Source: Escherichia phage Ecwhy_1. Taken from it: a DNA stretch of 64,000 nt. Shown here piece after piece: positions 22,329 through 35,718 of this stretch; position 1 is the stretch's first letter, and every line of letters starts with the position of its first letter. The stretch lies in sequence record MH791411.1; one strand, given 5' to 3'. Under the pieces are notes generated by a model, which saw nothing but the letters and a program-made list of their open reading frames with translations, had not been told where the DNA came from and ran no database searches. The translations under genes and the position numbers were made by a program.

Positions 22329-22878
22329 AACTATATCCTTGCATTAAAAGATCATAAGCAATATCAACTAATTCTAAACGAATGAAAAATTTTAAATTAT
22401 CTTTCAATGGATTCAAATGCATTGTACTAAACAACATAAGATACTTCATTTGATTTGTATTGTATATTAGGGATGTCTGAAATACTTCTGCTTCATTGTA
22501 AGGATCAATGAATTTTATACCTTCTTCACTATAATCCGTTTTGGAATTCTGATATATAAAATAATCATCACCATAATTGTACCACAAATAACCTTCAAAA
22601 CTGGAATCAAATTCTGAATTTTCATTTCGCATTAAAGGTGATACTGAAATTGGATTTGAACCAACTGTTGCACAAACCTCAATGAAAGCATCTTCATTTC
22701 CCTTAACTTCTTCTTTGATTTTATCATTGTACTGTCCTGCAAAACCAGCTTTTACTTCCAAATATAAACTACTCCCAACTTTATTAATTCTTAAAAGGGA
22801 ACTCTGTACTGTATTCGCATTGTCCAGCACTAACGATATTGTGCAAATCTTATGTACCAATAACTCAATATCATTCAT
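22318..22878 (-). CDS. Fam-A paralog
   Basis: core EAEVFQTSLIY. Confidence 0.55.
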   Translation of the reverse strand: MNDIELLVHKICTISLVLDNANTVQSSLLRINKVGSSLYLEVKAGFAGQYNDKIKEEVKGNEDAFIEVCATVGSNPISVSPLMRNENSEFDSSFEGYLWYNYGDDYFIYQNSKTDYSEEGIKFIDPYNEAEVFQTSLIYNTNQMKYLMLFSTMHLNPLKDNLKFFIRLELVDIAYDLLMQGYSYEV

Positions 22879-22889
22879 ATTGGTATTCC

Positions 22890-23072
22890 TTAATTTGGTG
22901 GATTTGGATGTAATAACTGATCTATATAATTTAAATGTTCTATTGTAACTAATGAAAGATAATAATTGTAATTATCTATACCACCCTTTAAATGTATATT
23001 GTAATACATCTTGATACTTACTAATAAAGAATCATTTAAATCATTTATTGCTTTTGTATTAACGGTTTTCAT
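22890..23072 (-). CDS. hypothetical small protein
   Basis: 60-aa co-oriented ORF. Confidence 0.3.
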   Translation of the reverse strand: MKTVNTKAINDLNDSLLVSIKMYYNIHLKGGIDNYNYYLSLVTIEHLNYIDQLLHPNPPN

Positions 23073-23211
23073 TAATGTTCTTCTCTTAAAAAACGCTTAA
23101 TGGCACAATCTAAATAAAAATCATAATACATCATATCTCTATTCTTAACCCATACACAATAATCTGCATTAATATTTCTTAATAATATATTCATATTATA
23201 ATCTTCACACC

Positions 23212-23622
23212 CTAATCGTGCCATTTAATAGGATACTCCGTTCCATTTATTGTATAAGATATAATCCATCCGTAATGAATAGGATGATTTTTGTCTGAAA
23301 CAGGAATAAAATATAAAGATGTACTGGGGTTATAACTGAATAAATCGTTGTTACCAATTGTAAAATGTGATAACTCAATCTTCCTTGTACCTGTACTTGG
23401 ACGAAGAACATTCTTAACACCGAAGACTGTACCTTGATATTTCTCGGAAAATTCAAACAATGCATCTGCAATTAAATCACGAAACTCCGCATGTATGGTT
23501 TCAAAAAAATCTATATTACACGATGTTTTAATATCCTTGAACTCCTTATATAAAGAGCTTCTTGTATTCAAAAGAAATATTACTTTTTTAAGATCCTGAA
23601 CTATTTCTGGATTCATATTCAT
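23212..23622 (-). CDS. hypothetical protein
   Basis: 136-aa ORF, no family motif. Confidence 0.45.
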   Translation of the reverse strand: MNMNPEIVQDLKKVIFLLNTRSSLYKEFKDIKTSCNIDFFETIHAEFRDLIADALFEFSEKYQGTVFGVKNVLRPSTGTRKIELSHFTIGNNDLFSYNPSTSLYFIPVSDKNHPIHYGWIISYTINGTEYPIKWHD

Positions 23623-23872
23623 TTATCTCATTCTGTAACTTAAGCATCAAAATTTGCATATTAATTTTTTGTACAAGATGATTGAGAAATTTCTGTACTG
23701 TATCTTCTTGTTCTTTTGTACCAAGATAAAATAACATATTAAATTCAGATAATCTCAGAGCGAAATCTTCCTCTCCCCCTCGTAAACAAAAATCCCTGTA
23801 CTTTGAAGCATACAAATAAGCATCTATCTTTTTATACCTTTGGGTCTGCATTGTATCTCCTTTTTCATGCAC
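23588..23872 (-). CDS. Fam-B minigene (outlier)
   Basis: LGTKEQED core. Confidence 0.45.
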   Translation of the reverse strand: MHEKGDTMQTQRYKKIDAYLYASKYRDFCLRGGEEDFALRLSEFNMLFYLGTKEQEDTVQKFLNHLVQKINMQILMLKLQNEINEYESRNSSGS

Positions 23873-24036
23873 CTTATTAGATTATCAACGTATTGATCCT
23901 GTACTATTGTCCCTAGATAAAATGATACTTCGAACTCTGATAATTTTATATTGAAAGGATCTACATATACATCTTTAATAAACTCTTTGTACTTCAACAT
24001 ATATGCATTAGGTATATTCTTATATATCGATTTCAA
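23824..24036 (-). CDS. Fam-B minigene (outlier)
   Basis: LGTIVQDQ core. Confidence 0.45.
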   Translation of the reverse strand: MKSIYKNIPNAYMLKYKEFIKDVYVDPFNIKLSEFEVSFYLGTIVQDQYVDNLIRCMKKEIQCRPKGIKR

Positions 24037-24331
24037 TGATCCTCCCTGACATACCTTGTATTAGCTTATCATACATATCGAGCATCACTTTTTGAATACT
24101 AATTAATACTGGCATCGTGCAAATATCAATGTCGTATATTAAGCTGTACTGGAATAATTCCTCTTCCTGCATGTGTACTAAATTAGGTAAAAGATAATTG
24201 TCTGCCTCTTCATCCTGGTACTTGAAATGCATAACACCATCCTTTTTGTACAAAAGAATGTCAATATCACCTAACTCTTCTGCATAACCAAAAATACATA
24301 TACTCGATGTTTTTGCTATATTAAATTTCAT
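24020..24331 (-). CDS. Fam-A paralog
   Basis: core EEELFQYSLIY. Confidence 0.6.
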   Translation of the reverse strand: MKFNIAKTSSICIFGYAEELGDIDILLYKKDGVMHFKYQDEEADNYLLPNLVHMQEEELFQYSLIYDIDICTMPVLISIQKVMLDMYDKLIQGMSGRIIEIDI

Positions 24332-24340
24332 ATTCTTCTC

Positions 24341-24691
24341 TTATATGTAGAATTCACATACGCGTTGAACAAAATTCTTTGGAAGATGACAATGTGCAAT
24401 CATCTGCTTTTGTACTTCCTTCATGTCTTCGAATGTAAATCCTAAAGAATCATCATGTACTAACAAGTACTGAAACTCTTCTTCTTCAGAGATAGAACAT
24501 AAATTCGGTACTGAAATTGTTTTTGCTTTTCTTGCACCCAATTTCCAATGAAAAGAATTATTGCATTTTCTGTACTCAAATATCTTCAACCCAGAACCTG
24601 TATTAAAATCAGCTACTACAATGTAACATGAATTCTTACGTACAATACAATTGAACTTACGCATTATCTCCACCTCTCTCCGTCTGTACAA
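24341..24691 (-). CDS. Fam-A paralog
   Basis: core EEEEFQYLLV; likely starts at MRKFN (about 24664). Confidence 0.55.
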   Translation of the reverse strand: MYRRREVEIMRKFNCIVRKNSCYIVVADFNTGSGLKIFEYRKCNNSFHWKLGARKAKTISVPNLCSISEEEEFQYLLVHDDSLGFTFEDMKEVQKQMIAHCHLPKNFVQRVCEFYI

Positions 24692-24909
24692 GAGTACTGG
24701 TACGTTGTCGTTAGGGTAGGGACCATGTTGGTAATGGGCATATTATTAACAATAACGGTAACAGGCATAAGTATCGTCTCTACTCTACTCTGTCCTGTCC
24801 TTGTGCAATTCATCTTTTGCATTTCATCGGACTCCATGAAATACAATACAAATGGTGCAATCCCAAGAACAATACACAAGACGATAAGGAAATTTAAAAA
24901 ATTCAACAT
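24664..24909 (-). CDS. small membrane protein (N-terminal TM helix)
   Basis: hydrophobic MLNFLNFLIVLCIVLGIAPFVLYF; TTGACA-N17-TATAGT promoter upstream; stop overlaps downstream ATG. Confidence 0.45.
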   Translation of the reverse strand: MLNFLNFLIVLCIVLGIAPFVLYFMESDEMQKMNCTRTGQSRVETILMPVTVIVNNMPITNMVPTLTTTYQYSCTDGERWR

Positions 24910-24970
24910 AATTTTCTACCCTAATGATTAACGTACAGGTACTATATCAGTAATGAAAAGTACTGTCAAG

Positions 24971-25345
24971 CTAGTATTGCACTGTTCTAATGAAAGTACC
25001 TTTACTCATGGATTTAAGCTTATGAACCTCTTCCTGTATACCCTTGATTAACCCTAAAGGTATAGGTACATCATGTACTAAGCTGTACTGAAAGTATTCT
25101 TCTTCAGATAAAGTACTAACATCTGGAATACCAATTTTAGTTATATAATCTTGATGTGTTGACCAATAAATTATATCTTCAGTACTATTGTACTCCCCAT
25201 ATACTGAACAATATTGATGAATATCTTTCATGTATCCTTGAGCAATAAAGAACTTATCTACTGCATTACCAGCATTAATAGAATTCACTTCGATTGTCAC
25301 AGTACTTGAGCTTGTTTTTCCTTTACTATGCATATTAATCCCCAA
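24971..25345 (-). CDS. Fam-A paralog
   Basis: core EEEYFQYSLV. Confidence 0.6.
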   Translation of the reverse strand: MGINMHSKGKTSSSTVTIEVNSINAGNAVDKFFIAQGYMKDIHQYCSVYGEYNSTEDIIYWSTHQDYITKIGIPDVSTLSEEEYFQYSLVHDVPIPLGLIKGIQEEVHKLKSMSKGTFIRTVQY

Positions 25346-25521
25346 ATTAGATATCGAACACTATCAGCTTGATAGTTAGTTCCTACTGTGTGTTTTAATA
25401 TTAACTCATCTTTCAGTACTGAACATTCTGCATTAGATATAGGAAGAGAATTAATTCTTTGAATTTCTGGTCGCAAAATACCGCGAAGCTTGCGGTAATC
25501 TTCGTATGATAATATTTTCAT
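25297..25521 (-). CDS. Fam-B minigene
   Basis: VGTNYQAD core. Confidence 0.5.
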   Translation of the reverse strand: MKILSYEDYRKLRGILRPEIQRINSLPISNAECSVLKDELILKHTVGTNYQADSVRYLIWGLICIVKEKQAQVL

Positions 25522-25524
25522 TGT

Positions 25525-25866
25525 TTAGTACTCAACGATGTGTTCTTCATAACCATTAAACTCCGGTTTAGTTTCTTTCATTAGGACTACCATTTTATGT
25601 ACTAATGGCATAGGAAATTCTAAATCCCATACTAATGATTCTTGAAAGTATTCTTCTTCAGATAAAGTACTTAAATCTTTAATATCAACGTGCTTGTATA
25701 TTTTATTTTCGTAATTAAGAAATGATATATATAAATCATTAACATCAGAATCATAAGTAATTGTGAATGGCTTACCCTTGTAGTCCATTACATCTTTACA
25801 TAGACTGCATTTGATATATGTATGTTCTTCTGAACTGTATACATTGAGTTGTATATTAGTTTTCAT
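25525..25866 (-). CDS. Fam-A paralog
   Basis: core EEEYFQESLVW. Confidence 0.6.
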   Translation of the reverse strand: MKTNIQLNVYSSEEHTYIKCSLCKDVMDYKGKPFTITYDSDVNDLYISFLNYENKIYKHVDIKDLSTLSEEEYFQESLVWDLEFPMPLVHKMVVLMKETKPEFNGYEEHIVEY

Positions 25867-26140
25867 ATTTCTCTTTATTAGCTTGTTTAGATTGTGTGGT
25901 TTTATAGTGAATTAAATCTATTAATGTAATCAAGTACAACGTCAAATAGTACTCTTGTTGATCTGTACCTAATGATACAAAGAACTTGTGCTCATAGATT
26001 AAAACCTGTTTCTCATAACAAGAACACTTAATCCTATGTATAGGTTTCAGTAAATGTGAGTACTTATTAAATCTCATACCCATTTCTATTTCAGATAGTA
26101 CTTTCATATTAAACATGTACTCCATTAGCTGTAGCATCAC
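25856..26140 (-). CDS. Fam-B minigene
   Basis: array member, LGTDQQEY. Confidence 0.5.
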   Translation of the reverse strand: MMLQLMEYMFNMKVLSEIEMGMRFNKYSHLLKPIHRIKCSCYEKQVLIYEHKFFVSLGTDQQEYYLTLYLITLIDLIHYKTTQSKQANKEKYEN

Positions 26141-26330
26141 GTAAAGCTCTCAAATACTTCTGTACTGCTTGCTCTTGATGATCTGTACCTAAAAGTATAT
26201 ACATCCATAATTCACTGTAATGTACATCTTGTGTATAAGGGTTGTTGTAACTTTTTGATAATATAGCATCAAATTCAGATGCATGAACCCTTGCGAACTT
26301 AAGCATATCTTGTTGTGTTATGATTCTCAT
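26109..26330 (-). CDS. Fam-B minigene
   Basis: array member, LGTDHQEQ. Confidence 0.55.
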   Translation of the reverse strand: MRIITQQDMLKFARVHASEFDAILSKSYNNPYTQDVHYSELWMYILLGTDHQEQAVQKYLRALRDATANGVHV

Positions 26331-26542
26331 ATCTTTTCCTGTACTATCTGCATAAGAATCTCTATGTGTGAATTAACAGTTCTCTCTTGATGCTGTGTTC
26401 CTAAGAGTGTCAGTACTATCATATCTGAACGCAAAAGATTTTTTTCAAGTTCACTTATATCAGTTCTTGAATCAAGTGCCATATATTTGTGATTATTCTT
26501 CCTGAATAGTGCCAAGTACTCTTGATTTGATATTTCCTTCAT
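26327..26542 (-). CDS. Fam-B minigene
   Basis: array member, LGTQHQER. Confidence 0.55.
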   Translation of the reverse strand: MKEISNQEYLALFRKNNHKYMALDSRTDISELEKNLLRSDMIVLTLLGTQHQERTVNSHIEILMQIVQEKI

Positions 26543-26778
26543 AGTTTATCCCTGATGCCATTTAAAAGTGCTCTAATATGCTCCTGTACGAATTTGTACT
26601 GACTGTCTGTTCCTAGAGTGAGTAGTAATCTTAAATCTGAACTTTTGATATGATATTCTAAATCATTATTTGATTCTTGCATCAGTTTCTTAAAGGATGA
26701 GAAGTTTGCAGCCATTAGTTCAATGTATTCTGCTGTTCCTAGGGGTTTGTGTATTGGCTGTTTGTGCTGTCTGTGCAT
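26539..26778 (-). CDS. Fam-B minigene
   Basis: array member, LGTDSQYK. Confidence 0.55.
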   Translation of the reverse strand: MHRQHKQPIHKPLGTAEYIELMAANFSSFKKLMQESNNDLEYHIKSSDLRLLLTLGTDSQYKFVQEHIRALLNGIRDKL

Positions 26779-26990
26779 TTTAATTTTATTACCCTTTTGA
26801 GTGTATTAATGTAATTATACACATTGGCTTCTTGATAGTTTGTTCCTAGAGTAGCTTGAACGTAGATTTCATTTAACTTAATAATTTTATCAGTATCTGG
26901 AAGTTTTGATGTGTTAATGGCAAATAACTTCGAAAACAGTCCATTTATGATTGTTAGGTATTCTTCGTCGGTAATGATTCGCATTTGCAT
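26739..26990 (-). CDS. Fam-B minigene
   Basis: array member, LGTNYQEA; start likely internal. Confidence 0.55.
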   Translation of the reverse strand: MQMRIITDEEYLTIINGLFSKLFAINTSKLPDTDKIIKLNEIYVQATLGTNYQEANVYNYINTLKRVIKLKCTDSTNSQYTNP

Positions 26991-27196
26991 TGGATAAACC
27001 TTTTTAGTTCTTTGATGTAATCATTAATATTACATTCTTGATAGTTAGTCCCTAGGGTAGAATTAACATAGATTTCACTCATTAGAATATTTTTTTCTTC
27101 ATCAGGTAAATCTGTGGTCTTTGCTATATACAATTTTAGAATTAAACTACTTAATAGTTCGTGGTATTCACTTGGTGAAAGGATTTTCATTTGCAT
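26954..27196 (-). CDS. Fam-B minigene
   Basis: array member, LGTNYQEC. Confidence 0.55.
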   Translation of the reverse strand: MQMKILSPSEYHELLSSLILKLYIAKTTDLPDEEKNILMSEIYVNSTLGTNYQECNINDYIKELKRFIQCKCESLPTKNT

Positions 27197-27402
27197 GTTC
27201 TCAGTACAGATTCTTTAAGTTCATCGATGTAGTCCTCAACGAATTGCTCTTGGAAGTTAGTTCCAACATATAAAAGAACTCTTAAATCTGCTCTAAGTAA
27301 CTCTTTTTCATCCTCATCTATATCAGACAATGTTATGTTTAAGAATTTACTTGTATTAAAGATTAACAATTCTGTTTGTTCACTGTGGCTTAAAATTTTC
27401 AT
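27187..27402 (-). CDS. Fam-B minigene
   Basis: array member, VGTNFQEQ. Confidence 0.55.
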   Translation of the reverse strand: MKILSHSEQTELLIFNTSKFLNITLSDIDEDEKELLRADLRVLLYVGTNFQEQFVEDYIDELKESVLRTCK

Positions 27403-27610
27403 AATCTCTTTTTGCTTTCCTCGACAGTAGGTACAAATACGATTCTTCGTATTGTGCTTGGAAGTTTGTGTTTAAGAGTCGAAACAACTTCTGTTCTGCT
27501 AGAACGAGTTGCTTATCTTCATAACAACGGTAGCGTATCAACTTTTTGTATTCGATGTTGATTACATCCATTACTATAAGCCCATGTTCATCATCTGTCA
27601 AGTGCTTCAT
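27380..27610 (-). CDS. Fam-B minigene
   Basis: array member, LNTNFQAQ. Confidence 0.5.
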   Translation of the reverse strand: MKHLTDDEHGLIVMDVINIEYKKLIRYRCYEDKQLVLAEQKLFRLLNTNFQAQYEESYLYLLSRKAKRDYENFKPQ

Positions 27611-27848
27611 GCTTTTTTCTTTTCCTGATGTGTTTAGTTAAAAGGTATATTAGTTTTCTGATGTATTCTTCTTGATAGTTTGTTCCTAGGAGTGCCAGAA
27701 GTTTTGCTTCAACTAAAGCTAATTGACGTTCTTCAAATGTGTGTTCCAGTATGTACTTTGGGTTTGATTTTTTAGATATTGCACTATTAGTTTTCATTAC
27801 AATCTTATGATATTCATTAACTGTTAGGATTTTTAAATTCTTGAGCAT
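27591..27848 (-). CDS. Fam-B minigene
   Basis: array member, LGTNYQEE. Confidence 0.55.
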   Translation of the reverse strand: MLKNLKILTVNEYHKIVMKTNSAISKKSNPKYILEHTFEERQLALVEAKLLALLGTNYQEEYIRKLIYLLTKHIRKRKKHEALDR

Positions 27849-28074
27849 GTACCTTTTCCTTTATAGAGAATTTAAGATATCGAAGCATACTTTCAATGTA
27901 ATACTCTTGTCTGTCAGTGCCAAGAAAGTACATGAGTTGAATGTATAAAACTTCTGCACTCCTTTCGGCATGTGACTTGTTTGTGTCGTTTGGAAGTTGA
28001 TTTGTAAGTTTTCTGGATTTAATTAGTCGTTCTTTTAACTCATCGTCTGTTAAGTATTTCATTTCATTTTGCAT
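27817..28074 (-). CDS. Fam-B minigene
   Basis: array member, LGTDRQEY. Confidence 0.55.
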   Translation of the reverse strand: MQNEMKYLTDDELKERLIKSRKLTNQLPNDTNKSHAERSAEVLYIQLMYFLGTDRQEYYIESMLRYLKFSIKEKVHAQEFKNPNS

Positions 28075-28294
28075 TTACTTTTTCCTTAATACTCATTACA
28101 AGATGTTCAATCATATTTTGAACCATAAATTCTTGTTTATCAGTTCCAAGAACGTATGGTAGCTTCTGAAACAATACATTCGCAGACATTTCATATATTG
28201 ATTGATTTGGAACGAACTTAAGAGTAATGTTATTGGCTTTTAACATCTTCTCTTGAAATTCTTCATTCGTTAAGTATATCATTTCACTTTGCAT
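28064..28294 (-). CDS. Fam-B minigene
   Basis: array member, LGTDKQEF. Confidence 0.55.
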   Translation of the reverse strand: MQSEMIYLTNEEFQEKMLKANNITLKFVPNQSIYEMSANVLFQKLPYVLGTDKQEFMVQNMIEHLVMSIKEKVNAK

Positions 28295-28520
28295 TTACTT
28301 TTTCCATAATAGTAATTTTGAGATATTTAATTATACGTTCAATGTGATACTCTTGCCTATCAGTTCCAAGAATGTATGGTAATCTTTGGAATAAAACTTC
28401 TGCACTCCTTTCCGCTGGGGTTTGGTTTGGGTTGTGTGGAAGATATTTTGTAAGTTTTTTGGATTTATCTAGTCTTTCTGTTAACTCATCATGTGTTAAG
28501 TATATCATTTCATTTTGCAT
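28284..28520 (-). CDS. Fam-B minigene
   Basis: array member, LGTDRQEY. Confidence 0.55.
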   Translation of the reverse strand: MQNEMIYLTHDELTERLDKSKKLTKYLPHNPNQTPAERSAEVLFQRLPYILGTDRQEYHIERIIKYLKITIMEKVNAK

Positions 28521-28756
28521 TTAATGTTCCTTACGTAAATTGTCTGGATTAAACAATCAATCCAAGTTTGAATATATTGGTTTTGATACTGTGTGCCTAA
28601 GAGACTCTGCATTTTAAACTCTGCTTCAAGTTCATATCTCTTTTCTATAGAAAAGCTCAAATGACCATATTCTTTATCGTATCTTCTCAGTGCTTCCCCA
28701 ATTCTATCAAATCTTTCTGCTAATCTGATGTTATTCACAATATTCATCGCATTCAT
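28505..28756 (-). CDS. Fam-B minigene
   Basis: array member, LGTQYQNQ. Confidence 0.55.
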   Translation of the reverse strand: MNAMNIVNNIRLAERFDRIGEALRRYDKEYGHLSFSIEKRYELEAEFKMQSLLGTQYQNQYIQTWIDCLIQTIYVRNIKCKMK

Positions 28757-29031
28757 CGATCAGTACACCTCAGTGGTTGGGTCATTTGATGAAAGTACAG
28801 CTTACCTCTGATTTCCAGTAGTAACTCAGCAATTAAGCGATTTACTTCTGGCTCTTGATAGTTTGTTCCTAAGAATACACCCATCTTTAACTCACGCATC
28901 ATAATCATTTTCTTACTGTGTTGAATTTCTGGGTTGTGATAGATTGTATTACGTTTGTGCGTAATTTTTGTCATACGCTCGGTATATTCATCTTTACTTA
29001 AATTGATCATTTGCATGTTCATCAACCTCAC
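28753..29031 (-). CDS. Fam-B minigene
   Basis: array member, LGTNYQEP. Confidence 0.55.
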   Translation of the reverse strand: MRLMNMQMINLSKDEYTERMTKITHKRNTIYHNPEIQHSKKMIMMRELKMGVFLGTNYQEPEVNRLIAELLLEIRGKLYFHQMTQPLRCTDR

Positions 29032-29242
29032 ATTTATTTTCGATACAAATCATGAGTTCTCTAAGATAGTTTTTTACCTTACCTGCCTGATAGTTCGTCC
29101 CCAGGAAGTTGCATAACTCTGCTTCTATCATTTTGATTCTTCTGTTATCAGGTTTCAATTTTTTGTTATTGAAGATTTGAATCCTTATATCCCTTGATGC
29201 ATTTAAACGTTTTTGATATTCATGGAAAGATAAATTAATCAT
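28994..29242 (-). CDS. Fam-B minigene
   Basis: array member, LGTNYQAG. Confidence 0.55.
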   Translation of the reverse strand: MINLSFHEYQKRLNASRDIRIQIFNNKKLKPDNRRIKMIEAELCNFLGTNYQAGKVKNYLRELMICIENKCEVDEHANDQFK

Positions 29243-29457
29243 TTACTTTGTATCTCTCTCTTGAGGGCATCAATTAACAACAGTACAGCATTCTCTTGAT
29301 AGTTTGTTCCTAAGACTGAAAGCATCTTAATCTCATTTACTACGATCAACTTCTTTGAGCGTTCAATAATGTTACTATTATAAACGGCGTTACGTGCTGG
29401 ATAAGTTTTTGCAAGACGTTCATAATATTCATCTTTACTTAAATTAATCATTTGCAT
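29239..29457 (-). CDS. Fam-B minigene
   Basis: array member, LGTNYQEN. Confidence 0.55.
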   Translation of the reverse strand: MQMINLSKDEYYERLAKTYPARNAVYNSNIIERSKKLIVVNEIKMLSVLGTNYQENAVLLLIDALKREIQSK

Positions 29458-29666
29458 TTACTTTTGACCTCCTTGACTAATGCATCAACCCACATGTCTA
29501 TATACATTTGTTGATAGTTTGTCCCTATGAGTGCCCCTGCATAGAGTTCAGCTATCAATGCATGTTTTAGGTTGGCAGGGATGCTCTTATCAGATTGAAT
29601 CTTTACTCTTCTGTTGGCACATGTTTTCAGGAGTCTGATGTATTCAAAGCCTTGTAATTTTCTCAT
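29448..29666 (-). CDS. Fam-B minigene
   Basis: array member, IGTNYQQM. Confidence 0.55.
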   Translation of the reverse strand: MRKLQGFEYIRLLKTCANRRVKIQSDKSIPANLKHALIAELYAGALIGTNYQQMYIDMWVDALVKEVKSKCK

Positions 29667-29878
29667 TCTTTTGATATCACCTTGTTACGTAAGGCACTTA
29701 ACAATACGTCAGTGTAGATGTTTTGATAGTTTGTTCCTACGAATACACCCAACTTCATTTCAGCTATTATAACACATTTGTCCTCTTGTGCAATAGACTT
29801 GTCTAAAGAAATACTAACAACTTTCCTTCTTATAGCTTGTAACCTCCAATGATACTGAAACTCATTTAGGGTTATCAT
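29663..29878 (-). CDS. Fam-B minigene
   Basis: array member, VGTNYQNI. Confidence 0.55.
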   Translation of the reverse strand: MITLNEFQYHWRLQAIRRKVVSISLDKSIAQEDKCVIIAEMKLGVFVGTNYQNIYTDVLLSALRNKVISKE

Positions 29879-30113
29879 TCTCTCGCCTCCATATCTCGGT
29901 TCTAATGTGTTGACATTGTGCTTCGATGAACATATCTATTGATTTGGCAATTGCTTTTTTATCAGTGCCTGTCATCAGTACAAGCATCTCGGCCTCACAG
30001 TGAAGTAAACGCATGATATCATAGGGTAATATTCCAGATACCGTGTCATAGTGTTTCTGTGCCAGTGTCTGTAATAGTTTACAATACATTTTGTGATTTA
30101 GTCTTTGTCGCAT
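29862..30113 (-). CDS. Fam-B minigene (divergent)
   Basis: array member, TGTDKKAI. Confidence 0.45.
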   Translation of the reverse strand: MRQRLNHKMYCKLLQTLAQKHYDTVSGILPYDIMRLLHCEAEMLVLMTGTDKKAIAKSIDMFIEAQCQHIRTEIWRRENDNPK

Positions 30114-30370
30114 TGTCTATTCCATTCTTTTTTGGCCTTGATGGTTTTATATTGGATTTGGTTTCTTAATGCTGATAAGTATCGTTGAATGAACAGATCT
30201 TGATAGTTTGTTCCAATGAATTTCATAAGATAAAGTTCACCGTTGATAACATCCACTTCAGGTGCACCATATAAGGCATTGTTTTTTCTAAGGGCATGGA
30301 TTAAAGAGAATAGGGCAGTTTGATACTCAACTCCTGATAAAGTCTTCATGTTTTGTGAGCCAATAATCAT
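30098..30370 (-). CDS. Fam-B minigene
   Basis: array member, IGTNYQDL. Confidence 0.55.
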   Translation of the reverse strand: MIIGSQNMKTLSGVEYQTALFSLIHALRKNNALYGAPEVDVINGELYLMKFIGTNYQDLFIQRYLSALRNQIQYKTIKAKKEWNRQCDKD

Positions 30371-30590
30371 CTAGTTTATCCTGTATAACATTCATTAATT
30401 GTTCGACATATTCTGTGCAAAACTTATCTTGATATTGAGTCCCCATAAAGTACAGCAACCATAGCTCATTAACTTTAGCTCGCATTTGGTTCCATGTAAG
30501 GCTGGGGTCATCGTAGACTATCCTTGCTATAGGGGTTAGTTTACGGACTATAGTTTCATATTCATCTAGTGTTAAGTGTTTCATTTGCAT
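30327..30590 (-). CDS. Fam-B minigene
   Basis: array member, MGTQYQDK. Confidence 0.55.
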   Translation of the reverse strand: MQMKHLTLDEYETIVRKLTPIARIVYDDPSLTWNQMRAKVNELWLLYFMGTQYQDKFCTEYVEQLMNVIQDKLDDYWLTKHEDFIRS

Positions 30591-30799
30591 TTGTCCCTTA
30601 TTAAATCAGTGAGGGCAACTATGTGTGCAACAACATACTCTTCCTGAAAGTTCGTCCCCAGTACAGCCATCATGCGTATATCGGTGGTGTTTATTCTGTG
30701 TTCCCTTACACATAAACCTTCTGTGTGAGGAAGTGTAAAATATTTGTTTATTGCAGCAACGATAATTTTATTCTTCTCGTAATTACTTAAATGTTTCAT
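30581..30799 (-). CDS. Fam-B minigene
   Basis: array member, LGTNFQEE. Confidence 0.55.
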   Translation of the reverse strand: MKHLSNYEKNKIIVAAINKYFTLPHTEGLCVREHRINTTDIRMMAVLGTNFQEEYVVAHIVALTDLIRDKCK

Positions 30800-31008
30800 A
30801 GTTTGCTCTTAATGTATTTCTGGAGTGCAATTATATACTCATTCAAGAAGTGCTCCTGATAATCTGTGCCGAGGAATGCACCCAATAGTATATCATTTTC
30901 CAATACTAATGCTAAGTTTAAATCATCAGTCTCTTCATATACTATGAGAATTTCAAGTTGTCTGGCAGCGACGCGTTCGGTATATAGATTTGAGTTAATG
31001 CTATTCAT
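30796..31008 (-). CDS. Fam-B minigene
   Basis: array member, LGTDYQEH; near-duplicate of next gene. Confidence 0.6.
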   Translation of the reverse strand: MNSINSNLYTERVAARQLEILIVYEETDDLNLALVLENDILLGAFLGTDYQEHFLNEYIIALQKYIKSKL

Positions 31009-31217
31009 AGTTTACTCTTAATGTAATTCTGGAGTGCAATTAAGTATTCCCCTACATAATACACCTGAAAGTCTGTATCCAAAAATGCACCCATAAGTAA
31101 ATCTTTTTCTAATACCCTTGATAAGTTAAGGTCTGCATTTGAATTGTATATAATTAAGATTTTATTCTGGACAGAAACAAAACGTATCTTATATTCTTCT
31201 GGTGTTAAAAAAATCAT
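31005..31217 (-). CDS. Fam-B minigene
   Basis: array member, LDTDFQVY. Confidence 0.55.
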   Translation of the reverse strand: MIFLTPEEYKIRFVSVQNKILIIYNSNADLNLSRVLEKDLLMGAFLDTDFQVYYVGEYLIALQNYIKSKL

Positions 31218-31423
31218 AGTTTACTCTTAATATCTTCTATTAAAAAATGAATCCAATCATCAACATACTCTTCCTGATGGTTTGTGTTCAGTACAGCCAA
31301 CATGCGGATCTCTGCTCTTGCAACTTGGATTTCAGTTTTAGAAAGGTCTTTGCTGATATCAAACATTAAGTCCATGTATTTCAAGATAAGACCGAATGAT
31401 TGGGTTCGTGTTATAGTTTTCAT
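31214..31423 (-). CDS. Fam-B minigene
   Basis: array member, LNTNHQEE. Confidence 0.55.
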   Translation of the reverse strand: MKTITRTQSFGLILKYMDLMFDISKDLSKTEIQVARAEIRMLAVLNTNHQEEYVDDWIHFLIEDIKSKL

Positions 31424-31620
31424 TGTTTCCTCGTGGACAATATTTCATTTTTCAATGCATCCATATATTGAATCACCCATCTTCCCTGATAGCTTGTACC
31501 CAATGTAATCAAAAGGTATAACTCAATTCGTTCTAAGTTTGTGTCTGTGTTATAAATCTTTACCATGTTTTTACGTAACAGTTCTTGATAATCTTCTTTA
31601 TTTAAAATACGCATTTTCAT
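31420..31620 (-). CDS. Fam-B minigene
   Basis: array member, LGTSYQGR. Confidence 0.55.
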   Translation of the reverse strand: MKMRILNKEDYQELLRKNMVKIYNTDTNLERIELYLLITLGTSYQGRWVIQYMDALKNEILSTRKQ

Positions 31621-31814
31621 AGTCTACCTTTTATGTCCCTTCGTAATTCTTGTAAGTATAGTTCGATATACTTTTCTTGATAGTTAGTTCCTATGAAAAG
31701 TTTCATAACCAATTCACGCTTATATGCAATACCACGGATATGTGACATATGTAAGATATATGCCATGTTGGATATGAGTGTGTGGTTGTGCTCTTCTTGA
31801 GTTAAAATACGCAT
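31617..31814 (-). CDS. Fam-B minigene (first of array)
   Basis: IGTNYQEK; TTGACT ... TATTAT promoter about 31840-31875 upstream. Confidence 0.55.
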   Translation of the reverse strand: MRILTQEEHNHTLISNMAYILHMSHIRGIAYKRELVMKLFIGTNYQEKYIELYLQELRRDIKGRL

Positions 31815-32063
31815 AGGGACTCCATTAAAAATAATATCAATCCAATAATATACGATTCATATAAAAAGTCAATAACATTTTATAAGTAATACCCCTTTAT
31901 CGAAGTCGCTAAGGTTACCCGCCCTTTAGCCCCCTACGCATTTTGCCATAGTCCAATCCCTTTTTATTCATAAAAGTCAAGGGATTACCTATGCATTTTT
32001 TTAACGCTGAAGTTTAAAAATGCCTTGACTTTTTTATGATTCAGTACTAAATCCTTTTACGCA

Positions 32064-32273
32064 TTAATCCTTCGTTACGCTTACGATTATCTGTGTATCC
32101 CCATAGTCCTGCCATACTTCCACGCCAGCCGTCGCCTTGGTTAGTCGTGCTGTCATCTGCTTAATGGTCTTAGGCTTTAGTGGAACCTGTTGCAGTACTG
32201 TACGCATAGCACTATCGACGTTATCATGTACGCCTGCAATAGTGCCTAGAACGCTATATACTGTATAGATCAT
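32064..32273 (-). CDS. hypothetical small protein
   Basis: 69-aa ORF at start of cassette region. Confidence 0.4.
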   Translation of the reverse strand: MIYTVYSVLGTIAGVHDNVDSAMRTVLQQVPLKPKTIKQMTARLTKATAGVEVWQDYGDTQIIVSVTKD

Positions 32274-32341
32274 GTGTATGTACTCCTGATATAGTTAAGG
32301 CCGCTAGAGAGCGGCCTATGATGTTTGATGATGTGTAACGC

Positions 32342-32743
32342 TTACAGTCCTAAGATAGTGCGTGCTTCGTTACGTTCCGTACACAGCTGCATGATGTGAG
32401 CAAGTAAGTCCTTGCTAATGTATCCGGTGTTCATAGCTTCACGAATAGATACATCATAAGCACCGAACCCAGTGCGAACGATACGCACATCATTCAGGTT
32501 AGTATTATAGATACCGCCGAGATCAACGGCTTCGAATACTACATCAACAGAATATTCATTGTTGCCATCGTGGAAGTTTTCCAGTGCAATAGTATTGGAA
32601 ACCGCCCAACGTTTGCAGTTTCCAATGATGCGGCACTGTTCCGGTTGGATAGTGCCATTACTTACAGCGTACTCCAGTGCATCTTTACCAAAAGTCCGAG
32701 CCAGTACTAAAACGTCAGCGAAGGAAGTGATTGAGAAGGTCAT
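32342..32743 (-). CDS. hypothetical protein
   Basis: track ORF trimmed to ATG after TAAGGAG SD; N-terminal extension MYNVLHREGE is translated promoter/hairpin. Confidence 0.5.
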   Translation of the reverse strand: MTFSITSFADVLVLARTFGKDALEYAVSNGTIQPEQCRIIGNCKRWAVSNTIALENFHDGNNEYSVDVVFEAVDLGGIYNTNLNDVRIVRTGFGAYDVSIREAMNTGYISKDLLAHIMQLCTERNEARTILGL

Positions 32744-32828
32744 GATAAAACTCCTTAATTTAGGAGGGAGAACCATTTCCCCCTCTCTATGTAAAACATT
32801 ATACATGAATCTAAGTACTATGCAAGTA

Positions 32829-33164
32829 CTATTTCATTTTAATACCTGGATTCAGGTAGCGGTGAGATCCATATTCTGGATCGGTTTCGGTCCAGTACTG
32901 TAAATCTATAGTACCTTTAGCGTTAATCTTATCTACCAGCTTATTCATCTTAGCGTATACTACATCAGCATCGATGCGTTTAAAGCCAGTGGCTTTAGTG
33001 AAGTAGTAGTGATTTGCTTCACTATCATTCAGGATGTACCGAGAACCGTCAGCCGTTTGTGCGACAATGAATGAGAATGATACTTTACGATCAAGGCCGT
33101 CGCAGTATACAGATGAATCATTGGTACGGATGAAAGCTTTAACGATAGCGATTGAAGTAGTCAT
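32829..33164 (-). CDS. hypothetical protein
   Basis: 111-aa ORF with promoter cassette upstream. Confidence 0.5.
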   Translation of the reverse strand: MTTSIAIVKAFIRTNDSSVYCDGLDRKVSFSFIVAQTADGSRYILNDSEANHYYFTKATGFKRIDADVVYAKMNKLVDKINAKGTIDLQYWTETDPEYGSHRYLNPGIKMK

Positions 33165-33409
33165 TTTGAATCTCCTAACTTTGTGGGCCGTCGCACCATT
33201 GCCGCCCTACGAGATACATTATTGCAGTACTGATATACTTTGTCAATACTTTTTTATTAATAGTTTTAGTTCCACCAGCAGATAGTTACTCACCGTTATT
33301 AACTATATATTTTGGATACACTTATGCACCCTGTGGGCTAGTTTTTGTCTATGCGTATATAATAGCAAAGGGACTGACCTGAGTCAATCCCTTTTTTTAT
33401 TCTTTTTTG

Positions 33410-33610
33410 TTAGATGATTCTCCAATCATCAACGATCATGGTAAGATACCGAACCAGTGATTCGAGTGATTCGTGTTCTCGATAGTCTGACGCACCGCCA
33501 GCGGTACAAGTACAGCCGATTAAGCCGTTTTGCAATTCCTTAATCTGTACATCGATAAGGTTGGCTTTAGCTTCTTTCAGTACTTCAACCAGGGCGATAG
33601 CGATAGACAT
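33410..33610 (-). CDS. hypothetical small protein
   Basis: 66-aa ORF, cassette upstream. Confidence 0.45.
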   Translation of the reverse strand: MSIAIALVEVLKEAKANLIDVQIKELQNGLIGCTCTAGGASDYREHESLESLVRYLTMIVDDWRII

Positions 33611-33700
33611 AATGTTTTACTCCAAACTATTGGCGGGAGAACTATTCCCCCGCTCTATGTAAAACATTATACATTACTGGTTAGTACTGTCAAATAGTTT

Positions 33701-33958
33701 TTATGAAATATCTTCGATGTAGTCGGCCCATTTCATTTTTTCAGTACTGTCAATGGCTACCGGATTATTTGGATCAAACCATTCACCATTACCGCAATAC
33801 ATACCAACGGCTACGGTTTTATAGCCATCCTGGGCCGTACACCACGACATTGCACGATAGATATGGCCTTTAACTGGTTGTAGTACTGGTAACGTTTTAT
33901 GGTCTTCTACGTAGGCCATCGCTTGATGATTTACCCGATATTGTGTGAACTGTTCCAT
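33701..33958 (-). CDS. hypothetical protein
   Basis: 85-aa ORF, cassette upstream. Confidence 0.45.
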   Translation of the reverse strand: MEQFTQYRVNHQAMAYVEDHKTLPVLQPVKGHIYRAMSWCTAQDGYKTVAVGMYCGNGEWFDPNNPVAIDSTEKMKWADYIEDIS

Positions 33959-34034
33959 TATGTTTCCCCTTGTAGTTAGTAAAGTTATTACATCAGTACT
34001 ATCAAGCTATGTCAATAGTACTGAAATAAAACTT

Positions 34035-34259
34035 TTAGATTAGATTATTGAGGCCGTCAATGGTAGACTCACTTTCTTCTTTCTCCCATTGTCGGTAGTA
34101 CTTCCATGCTTCATGATAGGTGGCGATTAGTTCATCTTTTTGATCCTGGTTACATGCCAGTACTGAATCACGGTGAGCGGTGTTATAGATAGAATCGAAT
34201 GATTTCTTCTCTTCTGCCAGGTTAGCTACTTCCCGCATCAGTTCATCAAAGTTAGCCAT
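34035..34259 (-). CDS. hypothetical small protein
   Basis: 74-aa ORF; AAAGGAG SD 7 nt before ATG; promoter plus hairpin upstream. Confidence 0.5.
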   Translation of the reverse strand: MANFDELMREVANLAEEKKSFDSIYNTAHRDSVLACNQDQKDELIATYHEAWKYYRQWEKEESESTIDGLNNLI

Positions 34260-34326
34260 TTTATTACTCCTTTTAGTGGGGGAGGATATCTCCCCCTATG
34301 CAAAACATTATACTTTGTTTTAGTTA

Positions 34327-34590
34327 TTATGCAAGTACTTTTTTCATATAAACATTAAATTCTACACCGCCGTAACCTTCCACGATGATATGTTTTGCGT
34401 TATCACGTTTGCACATAGTGAAACCATCGTTTACGTGTTTTGCATTTTCCAGGGCGACATCACCGATAGCGGCACATACGGCACTAATAACAGTATTCCG
34501 CAAAGTACTGGTATCATTGGCGGTCATAGTAGTTTGCAGTACTACGTTGTCGTATACGTGTGCATTGATAGTGATTTCGATAGTGTTCAT
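34327..34590 (-). CDS. hypothetical protein
   Basis: trimmed to MNTIEITINAHV; track N-terminus MFYIERGKWF is translated leader. Confidence 0.45.
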   Translation of the reverse strand: MNTIEITINAHVYDNVVLQTTMTANDTSTLRNTVISAVCAAIGDVALENAKHVNDGFTMCKRDNAKHIIVEGYGGVEFNVYMKKVLA

Positions 34591-35635: not shown

Positions 35636-35656
35636 GATTTTATTCCTTATTGTATT

Positions 35657-35715: not shown

Positions 35716-35718
35716 TAC

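What the first reader, a model, noticed from the sequence alone, without database searches (positions are those of the whole stretch)
25297..31814. Head-to-tail array of about 28 Fam-B minigenes (70-90 aa, GT(N/D)YQE core), likely one operon
From 31814 down to 25297 there is an uninterrupted train of about 220-250 bp genes, each encoding a predicted two- or three-helix protein with the pattern L..LGTNYQE..V..YI..L...I..K. Neighbours overlap by a few nucleotides and only one clear promoter lies upstream (about 31840-31875). Four more copies sit at 11169..11556 and 23588..24036. Periodicity at the DNA level superficially resembles a repeat array but every unit is an intact diverged ORF.
Basis: seen in the sequence. 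Interest (0 to 1): 0.75.

Follow-up and report, generated by a model that had tools for sequence, protein, structure and literature searches.

The report
Array of 28 small paralogous phage genes
A giant E. coli phage carries 28 back-to-back, intact but highly diverged copies of one small four-helix protein gene right next to its terminal repeat; the genes are real and conserved, but their function is unknown and is probably host manipulation early in infection.

Summary
Window 25297..31814 (- strand) holds 28 intact ORFs of 65-94 aa from one family, plus one ORF of a second family. They are packed with overlaps and no intergenic space, behind one sigma-70-like promoter. Four more copies lie at 11169..11556 and 23588..24036.

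The window comes from an Asteriusvirus (PBECO4/121Q-like jumbo coliphage, 97-98% identical to WPEC5/fEgEco12). The family is PHROG 4148, of unknown function. It has no Pfam, NCBIfam, PADLOC or PDB match.

AlphaFold gives a very confident four-helix model (pLDDT 97). It has no fold match in PDB or BFVD outside the family.

Paralogs share a median 28% identity and there is no DNA-level repeat. Each copy nevertheless has a positional 1:1 orthologue in five other genomes. dN/dS is 0.36-0.42 overall (0.19 in core columns, 0.45 in variable columns).

In relatives with mapped termini the array starts about 98 nt inside the roughly 21-kb direct terminal repeat. That repeat is full of consensus host-type promoters. 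The proteins were absent from a published virion proteome.

Best reading: an old, stably kept tandem family of small scaffold proteins with diversified surfaces, made early as a polycistron and acting on host or defence targets. The function is inferred, not shown.

The parts
31845..31872 (-). sigma-70-like promoter (TTGACT-16-TATTAT), 31-58 nt upstream of the first start codon
   Evidence: By homology to fEgEco12 and vB_Ec-M-J it lies about 40 nt inside the unique region from the terminal-repeat boundary, which maps to about window 31912.
31617..31814 (-). Fam-B copy 1 (65 aa)
   Evidence: family HMM E=1.9e-18; phrog_4148 E=8.8e-15
31420..31620 (-). Fam-B copy 2 (66 aa)
   Evidence: HMM E=8e-19; ATGA overlap
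31214..31423 (-). Fam-B copy 3 (69 aa)
   Evidence: HMM E=1.8e-22; ATGA overlap
31005..31217 (-). Fam-B copy 4 (70 aa)
   Evidence: HMM E=6.3e-22; ATGA overlap
30796..31008 (-). Fam-B copy 5 (70 aa)
   Evidence: HMM E=1.8e-19; ATGA overlap
30581..30799 (-). Fam-B copy 6 (72 aa)
   Evidence: HMM E=3e-23; phrog_4148 E=7.4e-14
30327..30590 (-). Fam-B copy 7 (87 aa)
   Evidence: HMM E=9.3e-26
30098..30370 (-). Fam-B copy 8 (90 aa)
   Evidence: HMM E=1.9e-21
29862..30113 (-). Fam-B copy 9 (83 aa; most divergent core, TGTDKK)
   Evidence: HMM E=2.5e-18
29663..29878 (-). Fam-B copy 10 (71 aa)
   Evidence: HMM E=1.5e-21
29448..29666 (-). Fam-B copy 11 (72 aa)
   Evidence: HMM E=2.9e-23
29239..29457 (-). 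Fam-B copy 12 (72 aa), the copy that was modelled
   Evidence: phrog_4148 E=2.8e-23; AlphaFold2 pLDDT 97.3, four helices
28994..29242 (-). Fam-B copy 13 (82 aa)
   Evidence: HMM E=3.9e-24
28753..29031 (-). Fam-B copy 14 (up to 92 aa; the true start is probably an internal ATG)
   Evidence: HMM E=5e-25
28505..28756 (-). Fam-B copy 15 (83 aa)
   Evidence: HMM E=1.1e-19
28284..28520 (-). Fam-B copy 16 (78 aa)
   Evidence: HMM E=3.2e-21; phrog_4148 E=3.7e-19
28064..28294 (-). Fam-B copy 17 (76 aa)
   Evidence: HMM E=1.3e-21
27817..28074 (-). Fam-B copy 18 (85 aa)
   Evidence: HMM E=2.6e-23; closest paralog pair, with copy 16, at 64% identity
27591..27848 (-). Fam-B copy 19 (85 aa)
   Evidence: HMM E=5.8e-21
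27380..27610 (-). Fam-B copy 20 (76 aa)
   Evidence: HMM E=2.9e-18
27187..27402 (-). Fam-B copy 21 (71 aa)
   Evidence: HMM E=3.1e-23
26954..27196 (-). Fam-B copy 22 (80 aa)
   Evidence: HMM E=1.3e-26; 100% identical in fEgEco12
26739..26990 (-). Fam-B copy 23 (83 aa)
   Evidence: HMM E=1.1e-24
26539..26778 (-). Fam-B copy 24 (79 aa)
   Evidence: HMM E=5.9e-21
26327..26542 (-). Fam-B copy 25 (71 aa)
   Evidence: HMM E=3.8e-22
26109..26330 (-). Fam-B copy 26 (73 aa)
   Evidence: HMM E=4e-21
25856..26140 (-). Fam-B copy 27 (up to 94 aa; the true start is probably an internal ATG)
   Evidence: HMM E=1.1e-21
25525..25866 (-). Interloper: one gene of the second family (Fam-A, EEYFQxS motif, 113 aa) inside the train
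   Evidence: phrog_13866 E=5.8e-9; no Fam-B HMM hit
25297..25521 (-). Fam-B copy 28 (74 aa), last of the train
   Evidence: HMM E=3.8e-20
23824..24036 (-). Outlying Fam-B copy (70 aa) embedded among Fam-A genes
   Evidence: HMM E=1.9e-18
23588..23872 (-). Outlying Fam-B copy (94 aa)
   Evidence: HMM E=7.9e-19
11338..11556 (-). Outlying Fam-B copy (72 aa)
   Evidence: HMM E=1.8e-18
11169..11360 (-). Outlying Fam-B copy (63 aa)
   Evidence: HMM E=3e-19; phrog_4148 E=6e-18

Best explanation
What it is (shown). This is an ancient tandem expansion of one lineage-specific gene (PHROG 4148) in a Rak2-like jumbo phage. It has 28 contiguous copies plus 4 scattered ones. Each copy encodes a small, compact four-helix protein of about 70 aa.

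Conserved and variable parts (shown; the last step is inferred). The conserved residues are the hydrophobic core, the Gly-Thr-x-x-Gln connection between helices 3 and 4, and the N-terminal L-(S/T)-x-x-E-Y. Almost every other position varies, as does net charge (pI 4.4-9.9). This is read as one scaffold with 32 different surfaces, though exposure was not measured on the model.

Stability (shown). The copies are not recent or redundant duplicates. Each has its own positional orthologue in other Asteriusvirus genomes and is under purifying selection.

How it most likely works (inferred). The array is the first unique DNA after the left roughly 21-kb direct terminal repeat, and it points inward. 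It would be transcribed by host RNA polymerase from the sigma-70-like promoter at 31872..31845, and possibly by read-through from the repeat's strong early promoters. The product would be one long polycistronic early or delayed-early mRNA, translated with coupling through the ATGA and overlapping junctions. The proteins would stay in the infected cell and each would bind a different host protein, host-defence protein or competitor protein through its own surface. On this reading the array is a standing set of small protein binders or inhibitors for host takeover, counter-defence or host range.
For: Real genes.
- Intact ORFs with no spacers.
- 31 of 32 copies match phrog_4148.
- SD-like motifs precede 18 of 28 starts, against 25% of control ATGs.
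- Pooled orthologue dN/dS is 0.36-0.42 against five genomes.

Scaffold plus variable surface.
- AlphaFold2 model with pLDDT 97.3, helices at 8-17, 19-26, 33-47 and 54-71.
- The near-invariant columns are G50, T51, Q54 and L65; hydrophobic core columns are also conserved.
- dN/dS is 0.19 in core columns and 0.45 in variable columns.
- pI ranges from 4.4 to 9.9.

Old and individually retained.
- Median paralog identity is 28%, maximum 64%, and the closest pairs are neighbours.
- Colinear reciprocal-best orthologues occur in vB_Ec-M-J, ph0011, UB, phAPEC6 and Salmonella phage SD-15_S21, with 28-30 copies each.

Hypervariable alleles.
- Orthologue identity runs from 59% to 100% between adjacent genes of one genome pair.
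- dS is 0.21-0.26 in the array, against 0.05-0.14 in the repeat-side flank.

Position and timing.
- The terminal repeat of fEgEco12 is 20,993 bp, confirmed by restriction digests (PMC13070987). Its first Fam-B CDS starts at 21,091.
- In vB_Ec-M-J the repeat is annotated 1..21525 and the array starts at 21624.
- The repeat-equivalent part of the window carries at least 13 perfect TTGACA-16-TATAAT promoters on the same strand.
- The Rak2-like phage CBB paper proposed that the terminal repeat may continue the adjacent region it suspects to be early, on the basis of RpoD-like promoters (PMC5259590).

Not structural.
- None of phAPEC6 gp467c-gp489c is among the 62 virion proteins found by mass spectrometry (PMC7247149 Table 1; locus map).

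Wider distribution.
- The family and its clustered arrangement recur in Klebsiella Alcyoneusvirus KP13-7 and in divergent metagenomic contigs.
Against: - There is no direct evidence of expression time, of translation or of any binding partner.
- No similarity to any protein of known function was found by sequence or fold, so the functional step rests on analogy.
- Copy number and gene order are very stable across E. coli and Salmonella phages. An arms-race 'accordion' would be expected to vary more, and this stability would also fit a phage-internal role.
- No column class reaches dN/dS > 1 overall, so positive selection is not shown.
- The array promoter matches only 10 of 12 positions, and promoter-like matches in the region are not above shuffled expectation.
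- Small proteins are easily missed in virion proteomics.
Confidence: 0.45

Rival explanations
1. Fam-B proteins are partners of the second family. On this reading they act as small regulatory, inhibitory or chaperone subunits for the EEYFQxS proteins (Fam-A, 100-210 aa), and the two families form one functional module.
For: - The two families are co-directional and interleaved or adjacent wherever both were found. This holds in the window (Fam-A at 25525..25866 inside the array; Fam-B pairs at 11.2-11.6 kb and 23.6-24.0 kb inside Fam-A).
- It also holds in Klebsiella phage KP13-7, with 10 Fam-B and at least 12 Fam-A in 24 kb.
- It also holds in metagenome contigs L002, L003, L012, L013 and L014.
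Against: - There is no pairwise arrangement. 28 Fam-B genes sit together with only one Fam-A, and the long Fam-A runs have no Fam-B.
- The profiles are unrelated (hhalign probability 0.3%).
- Co-location may only reflect a shared expression class.
Confidence: 0.2
2. Fam-B proteins have a phage-internal role. Examples would be stage-specific regulators, or assembly or replication accessory factors that the phage itself needs, each paralog serving a different phage component.
For: - Positional orthology is strict and copy number is stable at 28-30 across E. coli and Salmonella phages.
- Overall selection is purifying.
- The family is old enough to be shared with Alcyoneusvirus.
Against: - The array sits in the putative early block, next to the terminal repeat and far from the structural genes.
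- The proteins are absent from the virion proteome (PMC7247149).
- Surfaces and charges diverge strongly, and allele identity is mosaic at 59-100%. That is unusual for factors that co-evolve with conserved phage machinery.
- Alcyoneusvirus manages with far fewer, scattered copies.
Confidence: 0.15
3. Fam-B proteins are small DNA-binding regulators, i.e. helix-turn-helix-like proteins. This lead came from the resemblance of L-G-T-N-Y-Q-E..V..YI..L to sigma region 4 and LuxR-type recognition helices.
For: Only a recalled motif resemblance, plus a majority of basic members (18 of 32 have pI > 8).
Against: - Foldseek against PDB finds no HTH or any other fold at E < 1.
- No Pfam HTH family matches any of the 32 members.
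- Eleven members are acidic, with pI down to 4.4.
Confidence: 0.05
4. The array is decaying or selfish DNA: pseudogenes, or a repeat array that merely happens to be open.
For: - All copies are annotated as hypothetical proteins.
- A few truncated or partial copies occur in other genomes: UB, phAPEC6, SD-15_S21 and metagenome L003.
Against: - All 32 window copies are full length.
- dN/dS is well below 1, and it is lowest at core positions.
- A confident fold is predicted from the covariation of the paralogs alone.
- There is no DNA-level repeat.
- The family is conserved across genera.
Confidence: 0.02
5. The proteins are packaged in the virion and ejected with the DNA, like T4 internal proteins.
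For: - The proteins are small, and many are basic.
- phAPEC6 has an inner body whose components are not all assigned (PMC7247149).
Against: - None of the array's products is in the phAPEC6 virion mass-spectrometry list (PMC7247149 Table 1).
- No propeptide or cleavage motif was noticed. This was not searched for systematically.
Confidence: 0.03

Closest known systems
Terminal multigene families of large eukaryotic DNA viruses (African swine fever virus MGF110/360/505; poxvirus terminal host-range families; tandem paralog expansions in mimiviruses). From established knowledge.
   Same: - Many diverged paralogs of one gene, head to tail.
- Close to a genome terminus or terminal repeat.
- Non-structural.
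- A variable region of an otherwise colinear genome.
   Different: - The proteins here are much smaller (about 70 aa) and of an unrelated, unmatched fold.
- Copy number is nearly fixed, with 1:1 positional orthologues, rather than expanding and contracting between strains.
- A role in host range or immune evasion is shown for those viruses but only inferred here.
Early host-takeover modules of small proteins in or next to phage terminal redundancies (Bacillus phage SPO1 host-takeover module; T5 pre-early first-step-transfer genes; Twort-like long-terminal-repeat genes). From established knowledge.
   Same: - Small non-structural proteins.
- Same orientation, reading inward from the genome end.
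- Host-type promoters.
- Location at the terminal repeat.
   Different: - Those modules consist of unrelated genes, usually each with its own promoter. That description fits the repeat region of this phage (window about 31.9-53.5 kb), not the array.
- The array is one paralogous family, lies just outside the repeat, and has no internal spacers.
PHROG 4148 (and the related phrog_28039)
   Same: 31 of 32 copies match the profile over its full length, with E down to 5e-26. This is the same sequence family.
   Different: The PHROG entry carries no function and says nothing about the tandem organisation.
Plasticity or hypervariable regions of T4-like phages, filled with small ORFs of unknown function. 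From established knowledge.
   Same: - Dense small early ORFs.
- High allelic divergence and mosaicism between related phages.
   Different: Those ORFs are mostly unrelated to each other and differ in presence or absence between phages. Here there is a single family with conserved order.

Membership tests
PHROG 4148 (sequence family, unknown function) | Significant full-length match to the family profile | tested here: met
   31 of 32 copies match at E <= 1e-3, best 5.2e-26. Eight copies tested singly gave E from 1.4e-11 to 2.8e-23, covering profile positions 1-70 of 74.
Tandem multigene family of a large DNA virus ('genomic accordion' type) | Many paralogs in head-to-tail tandem near a genome terminus | tested here: met
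   28 contiguous copies. In fEgEco12 and vB_Ec-M-J the array starts 98-99 nt inside the terminal-repeat boundary (PMC13070987).
Tandem multigene family of a large DNA virus ('genomic accordion' type) | Copy number expands and contracts between related strains | tested here: not met
   There are 28-30 copies in each of six genomes, with colinear reciprocal-best orthologues. Only a few single-gene insertions, losses or replacements were seen.
Tandem multigene family of a large DNA virus ('genomic accordion' type) | Role in host range or immune evasion | not testable with these tools
   This needs deletion mutants and host panels.
Phage early host-takeover module | Small non-structural proteins encoded in or next to the terminal redundancy, reading inward | tested here: met
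   The proteins are absent from the phAPEC6 virion proteome (PMC7247149 Table 1, with the locus map).
Phage early host-takeover module | Strong host-type (sigma-70) early promoters driving the genes | tested here: inconclusive
   There is one 10/12 match 31-58 nt upstream. The adjacent repeat region has at least 13 perfect 12/12 promoters. Promoter-like matches in the array region are not above shuffled expectation.
Phage early host-takeover module | Expression in the first minutes of infection, with effects on host macromolecular synthesis | not testable with these tools
   No transcriptome or proteome time course for any Asteriusvirus was found in the searchable literature.
Helix-turn-helix DNA-binding proteins (sigma region 4 / LuxR-like) | HTH fold or HTH profile match | tested here: not met
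   Foldseek against PDB gave no match at E < 1. No Pfam or NCBIfam HTH family matched any of the 32 copies.
Virion internal or ejected proteins | Presence in purified virions | tested here: not met
   This rests on literature only. gp467c-gp489c are not among the 62 phAPEC6 virion proteins (PMC7247149 Table 1). Small proteins can be missed by this method.
DNA repeat array (CRISPR-like or satellite) | Recognisable repeat at the DNA level | tested here: not met
   Tandem Repeats Finder reports only two 9-bp micro-repeats in 25000..32000. No Rfam family matches.
Known anti-phage defence proteins (PADLOC) | Match to a defence-system profile | tested here: not met
   There were only isolated single-member hits at E >= 0.0016, and no shared family. 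No library of anti-defence proteins was available.

The most novel reading that the evidence does not exclude
The array is a hard-wired repertoire of about 30 mini-binders on one unmatched four-helix scaffold. Each would neutralise a different host defence or housekeeping protein. Alternatively, each would use the conserved N-terminus plus G-T-x-x-Q patch to dock onto one common host machine while its variable face recruits a different target, making an adaptor library. The co-travelling EEYFQxS family would be a second arm of the same module. This would be a new class of phage counter-defence or host-takeover proteins, organised unlike any described anti-defence locus.
Probability: 0.2. Interest if true: 0.8.

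Novelty: new variant of a known kind. Interest (0 to 1): 0.55.

Why it matters
Three tandem paralog families together fill roughly 36 kb, about a tenth of a ~350-kb genome. They are Fam-B at about 6.5 kb, Fam-A at 25 kb or more, and Fam-C at about 4.6 kb. None has a known function.

These phages infect E. coli, are being proposed for therapy, and often persist in bacterial isolates (bioRxiv 10.1101/2024.12.31.630880). None of the Asteriusvirus or Rak2-like genome papers I could search describes these families.

If Fam-B proteins are target-specific binders, the array would supply about 30 ready-made small inhibitors of E. coli proteins or defence systems, in a genetically tractable host. Its fixed copy number and 1:1 orthology would also be a case of long-term retention of many diverged paralogs in a phage. 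That contrasts with the expand-and-contract behaviour described for eukaryotic giant viruses.

If the array proves dispensable, it shows how much of a jumbo phage genome is accessory.

Tried and rejected
Function-seeking searches that found nothing
- Pfam, NCBIfam and PADLOC scans of all 32 copies gave only scattered sub-threshold single hits.
- A profile search of PDB sequences gave nothing below E = 0.35.
- Foldseek of the pLDDT-97 model against PDB gave nothing at E < 1. Against BFVD, only Asteriusvirus family members matched.

Ideas tested and dropped
- The helix-turn-helix idea, prompted by the motif's resemblance to sigma region 4 and LuxR, was dropped after the fold and profile searches.
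- Homology of Fam-B to the neighbouring Fam-A or Fam-C families was rejected by hhalign (probability 0.3-0.4%).
- I modelled a Fam-A member to get a functional hint from context. The model is good (pLDDT 90) but has no PDB match.
- DNA-level repeat and RNA readings were rejected. TRF found nothing relevant and Rfam found nothing.

Searches for relatives
- The search for related loci with the family alignment failed because no stretch was conserved enough.
- Degenerate-pattern scans of IMG/VR gave one true locus (L009, three copies) and one chance match (L010).
- tblastn of two divergent metagenomic members against GenBank phages found nothing.

Selection
- Pooled and per-column NG86 estimates show no class of columns above 1. 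A proper site-model test was not run.

Literature
- Searches for any description of these families or of Asteriusvirus transcriptomics found none.

Full report
**Identity of the window**

The stretch 25297..31814 matches 35 GenBank phage records by megablast. All are jumbo phages of Escherichia or Salmonella, 310-386 kb, and those whose taxonomy was checked are Asteriusvirus (the PBECO4/121Q group). The best matches are WPEC5, WPEC3, EC.P1 and fEgEco12 at 97-98% identity. Every gene under the match is annotated 'hypothetical protein'. The window is AT-rich: 0.32-0.34 GC in the array and 0.38-0.41 GC in the 32-54 kb stretch.

**The observation**

The ORF listing shows an unbroken train of - strand ORFs from 31814 down to 25297.
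- 28 of them (65-94 aa) share M-K-x-L-(T/S)-x-x-E-Y near the N-terminus and L-G-T-(N/D)-(Y/F)-Q-E..V..(Y)I..L...I..K in the C-terminal half.
- One 113-aa ORF (25525..25866) instead carries the EEYFQxS motif of the family that fills 485..25345.
- Junctions are overlaps of 4-44 nt, 13 of them ATGA. The only spacer is 3 nt.
- Choosing the family-aligned Met gives ATGA or +/-1-2 nt junctions at about 18 of 28. However, the longest-ORF starts have better Shine-Dalgarno support: 18 of 28 have a match of 4 nt or more, against 25% of the other ATGs in the array.
- An HMM of the family finds exactly 32 members in all six frames of the window, at E <= 3e-18, with the next hit at E = 0.37. The HMM was built from the same sequences, so the independent check is that 31 of 32 match phrog_4148.
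- Unit spacing is 193-254 bp, but Tandem Repeats Finder sees no DNA repeat. No Rfam family matches.

**The proteins**

- Paralogs are very diverged: median pairwise identity is 28%, maximum 64%, and the closest pairs are neighbours.
- Near-invariant residues, numbered on copy 12, are G50, T51, Q54 and L65. Other conserved columns are hydrophobic (L6, Y11, L15, I38, I43, M45, L49, V58, Y61, I62, I69) or are E10, E42, N52, E55 and K72.
- Net charge is not conserved. pI runs from 4.4 to 9.9, with 11 acidic and 18 basic members.
- AlphaFold2, given only the 32 paralogs as its alignment, returns a model with pLDDT 97.3 and pTM 0.83. It has helices at 8-17, 19-26, 33-47 and 54-71, and a one-residue bridge between residue 4 and T51.
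- The G-T-x-x-Q motif therefore sits in the tight connection between helices 3 and 4 and contacts the N-terminal strand. I read it mainly as a fold-determining element. This is an inference, and a shared binding patch is not excluded.
- Foldseek finds no PDB structure at E < 1. In BFVD it finds only uncharacterised proteins of phages UB, slurp01 and 121Q.
- Pfam, NCBIfam, PADLOC and PDB-sequence searches are empty.

**Distribution**

- A profile search of 1.84 billion representative proteins finds only 102 clusters at E <= 1e-3. Nearly all are 50-120 aa; the one long hit (1368 aa) looks like a low-complexity chance match.
- In the 5.8-billion-protein set, where a source names the protein it comes from an Asteriusvirus phage or an E. 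coli assembly, and the complete contigs are 345-385 kb. Many other hits are short metagenomic contigs. This fits the reported persistence of Asteriusvirus in bacterial isolates (bioRxiv 10.1101/2024.12.31.630880).
- tblastn adds one other genus, Klebsiella Alcyoneusvirus KP13-7. There the HMM finds 10 copies in small clusters within 24 kb. Three of them lie in a stretch with no annotated gene.
- Divergent metagenomic contigs carry 13+2 copies (L002), 13 (L012, GC 0.28), 8 (L013) and 10 (L003).
- In nearly all of these, Fam-B genes are co-directional with, and next to or interleaved with, EExxFQxS (Fam-A) genes. The short fragments L009 and L015 show no Fam-A motif.
- The 28-gene block is thus an Asteriusvirus-scale expansion of an older family shared among Rak2-like phages.

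**Evolution**

- Five other Asteriusvirus loci carry 28-30 copies each.
- Reciprocal-best orthologues are colinear with the window's copies. There are only a few single-gene insertions, losses or replacements.
- Pooled NG86 dN/dS for orthologues is 0.36-0.42. The 48 genes of the terminal-repeat region give 0.20 against vB_Ec-M-J, and the small flank samples give 0.23-0.35.
- Split by column, dN/dS is 0.19 in core and motif columns and 0.45 in the remaining columns. A handful of individual columns are near 1, but no class exceeds 1.
- Closest paralog pairs give 0.25-0.39, with dS near or beyond saturation.
- Divergence is mosaic. Within one genome pair, adjacent genes range from 59% to 100% identity.
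- dS in the array is 0.21-0.26, against 0.05-0.14 in the repeat-side flank. This suggests exchange of old alleles by recombination.
- The genes are therefore functional, individually retained and fast-evolving at non-core positions, but they are not a rapidly expanding and contracting array.

**Genomic position and transcription**

- vB_Ec-M-J is annotated with a direct terminal repeat at 1..21525, and its array starts at 21624.
- For fEgEco12, the closest well-studied relative, a 20,993-bp repeat was determined with PhageTerm and confirmed by restriction digests (PMC13070987). Its first Fam-B gene, g057, starts at 21,091.
- Sharanji has a 20,668-bp repeat (PMC11895373).
- In window terms the repeat boundary falls at about 31912, and the repeat spans to roughly 53-54 kb. 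There ORFs stop and the GC skew flips.
- That stretch contains spaced small genes and at least 13 perfect TTGACA-16-TATAAT sites on the - strand. Many are followed by a conserved hairpin leader.
- The array has one TTGACT-16-TATTAT site 31-58 nt before its first ATG. It has no convincing - strand terminator. Two internal promoter-like matches occur at chance frequency.
- The next strong promoter-like site is at 24969..24941, after the two genes that follow the array's main block.
- My reading is one early or delayed-early polycistron of about 6.9 kb, possibly fed also by read-through from the repeat. This is inferred from sequence.
- For the related phage CBB, the authors suspected an adjacent region to be early and suggested the terminal repeat may continue it, on the basis of RpoD-like promoters (PMC5259590).
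- None of the phAPEC6 array genes (gp467c-gp489c) is among the 62 virion proteins detected by mass spectrometry (PMC7247149, Table 1).

**Mechanism**

Shown:
- a tandem family of real genes for a compact four-helix protein;
- a conserved core with variable remaining positions and variable charge;
- stable positional orthology;
- a non-virion location;
- a position immediately inside the terminal repeat.

Inferred:
- early polycistronic, translationally coupled expression;
- action as a set of small binders, each with its own target among host, defence or competitor proteins.

The strict copy-number stability is the main observation that sits uneasily with an arms-race reading. It keeps two rivals alive: a phage-internal role, and partnership with Fam-A. 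Pseudogene, DNA-repeat, HTH-regulator and virion-protein readings were tested and are disfavoured.

**Comparison with known systems**

- The array resembles the terminal multigene families of large eukaryotic DNA viruses in organisation. It fails their characteristic copy-number plasticity.
- It resembles phage host-takeover modules (SPO1, T5) in location and protein size. Those modules are sets of unrelated genes, a description that fits the repeat region here rather than the array.
- At the sequence level it is simply PHROG 4148.
- I found no paper that describes the array or the family.
- The fEgEco12 paper notes only that blocks rich in hypothetical and accessory genes vary most among Asteriusvirus genomes (PMC13070987).

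**Verdict**

The finding is a new variant of a known kind: a tandem multigene family in a large virus. Its protein fold has no match in the libraries available, and its function is unknown. Interest is moderate. The organisation is striking and undescribed, and it occurs in a tractable E. coli phage, but nothing here points to a specific mechanism.

Noticed in passing
window 485..25866, - strand: A second, larger paralog family (Fam-A, 100-215 aa) fills the 25 kb downstream of the array. Members carry a conserved (E/D)(E/D)x(F/Y/L)FQx(S) motif followed by (L/T)(V/I)xD, and F and Q are invariant in a 24-member alignment. At least 26 ORFs carry the strict motif. An AlphaFold2 model of 22017..22328 has pLDDT 90, with a beta-sheet plus two helices, and no PDB fold match. 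PHROG hits are all of unknown function. The family co-occurs with Fam-B in nearly every lineage examined.
   Followed up: partly
window 54167..58774, - strand: A third head-to-tail family (Fam-C) has about 20 ORFs of 59-78 aa. The pattern is M-N-x-x-K-E-(Y/F)-Y...C(T)...Y..(V)L.LI, with one 219-aa Fam-A-like gene (56115..56774) in the middle. It is unrelated to Fam-B by hhalign (probability 0.4%). By position it would lie just before the right copy of the terminal repeat.
   Followed up: partly
window about 31900..53600, - strand: The terminal-repeat-equivalent region has at least 13 perfect TTGACA-16-TATAAT promoters. Most are followed by a conserved leader (AGTTTACATCAAGGGGAGAA..TTCTCCCC hairpin). 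A second promoter class (TTGACT-17-TATTAT) is followed by a conserved ...AGCCCACAGGGTGCATAAGTG element at 33387, 36144, 39414, 43424 and 50730. These look like repeated regulatory cassettes of the immediate-early genes.
   Followed up: no
window about 52900..54150: There is an ORF-poor stretch where the GC skew changes sign. By colinearity with fEgEco12 and vB_Ec-M-J this is probably the physical genome terminus, with the outer end of the terminal repeat collapsed in this assembly.
   Followed up: partly
window 58881..63729, + strand: Four paralogous genes of 382-412 aa all begin MLPFVRM(F/V)(D/K)YGN and have glycine-rich repeats that look RCC1-like. They may correspond to the roughly 41-kDa 'DNA condensation proteins' found in the phAPEC6 virion (PMC7247149). 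Homology was not checked.
   Followed up: no
L008 (Klebsiella phage KP13-7, OP617745.1) 11628..12192 = record about 166,085..166,649: Three Fam-B ORFs (HMM E from 7e-13 to 2e-8) lie in a 660-bp stretch where the GenBank record has no annotated gene. These are likely missed genes.
   Followed up: yes
L003 299..832 (metagenome scaffold LEMO22-1_SAMN17279166_METAG-scaffold_7913), protein P0103: A 154-aa product scores as two Fam-B units in one ORF (117 bits). It is either a natural fusion of two adjacent copies or an assembly or sequencing frameshift.
   Followed up: no
window 24664..24909, - strand, with promoter-like site 24969..24941: An 81-aa ORF with a strongly hydrophobic N-terminal half, which looks like a membrane segment, belongs to neither family. 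It sits behind an 11/12 promoter match with an extended TG, directly after the block that contains the array. This may mark the start of the next transcription unit.
   Followed up: no
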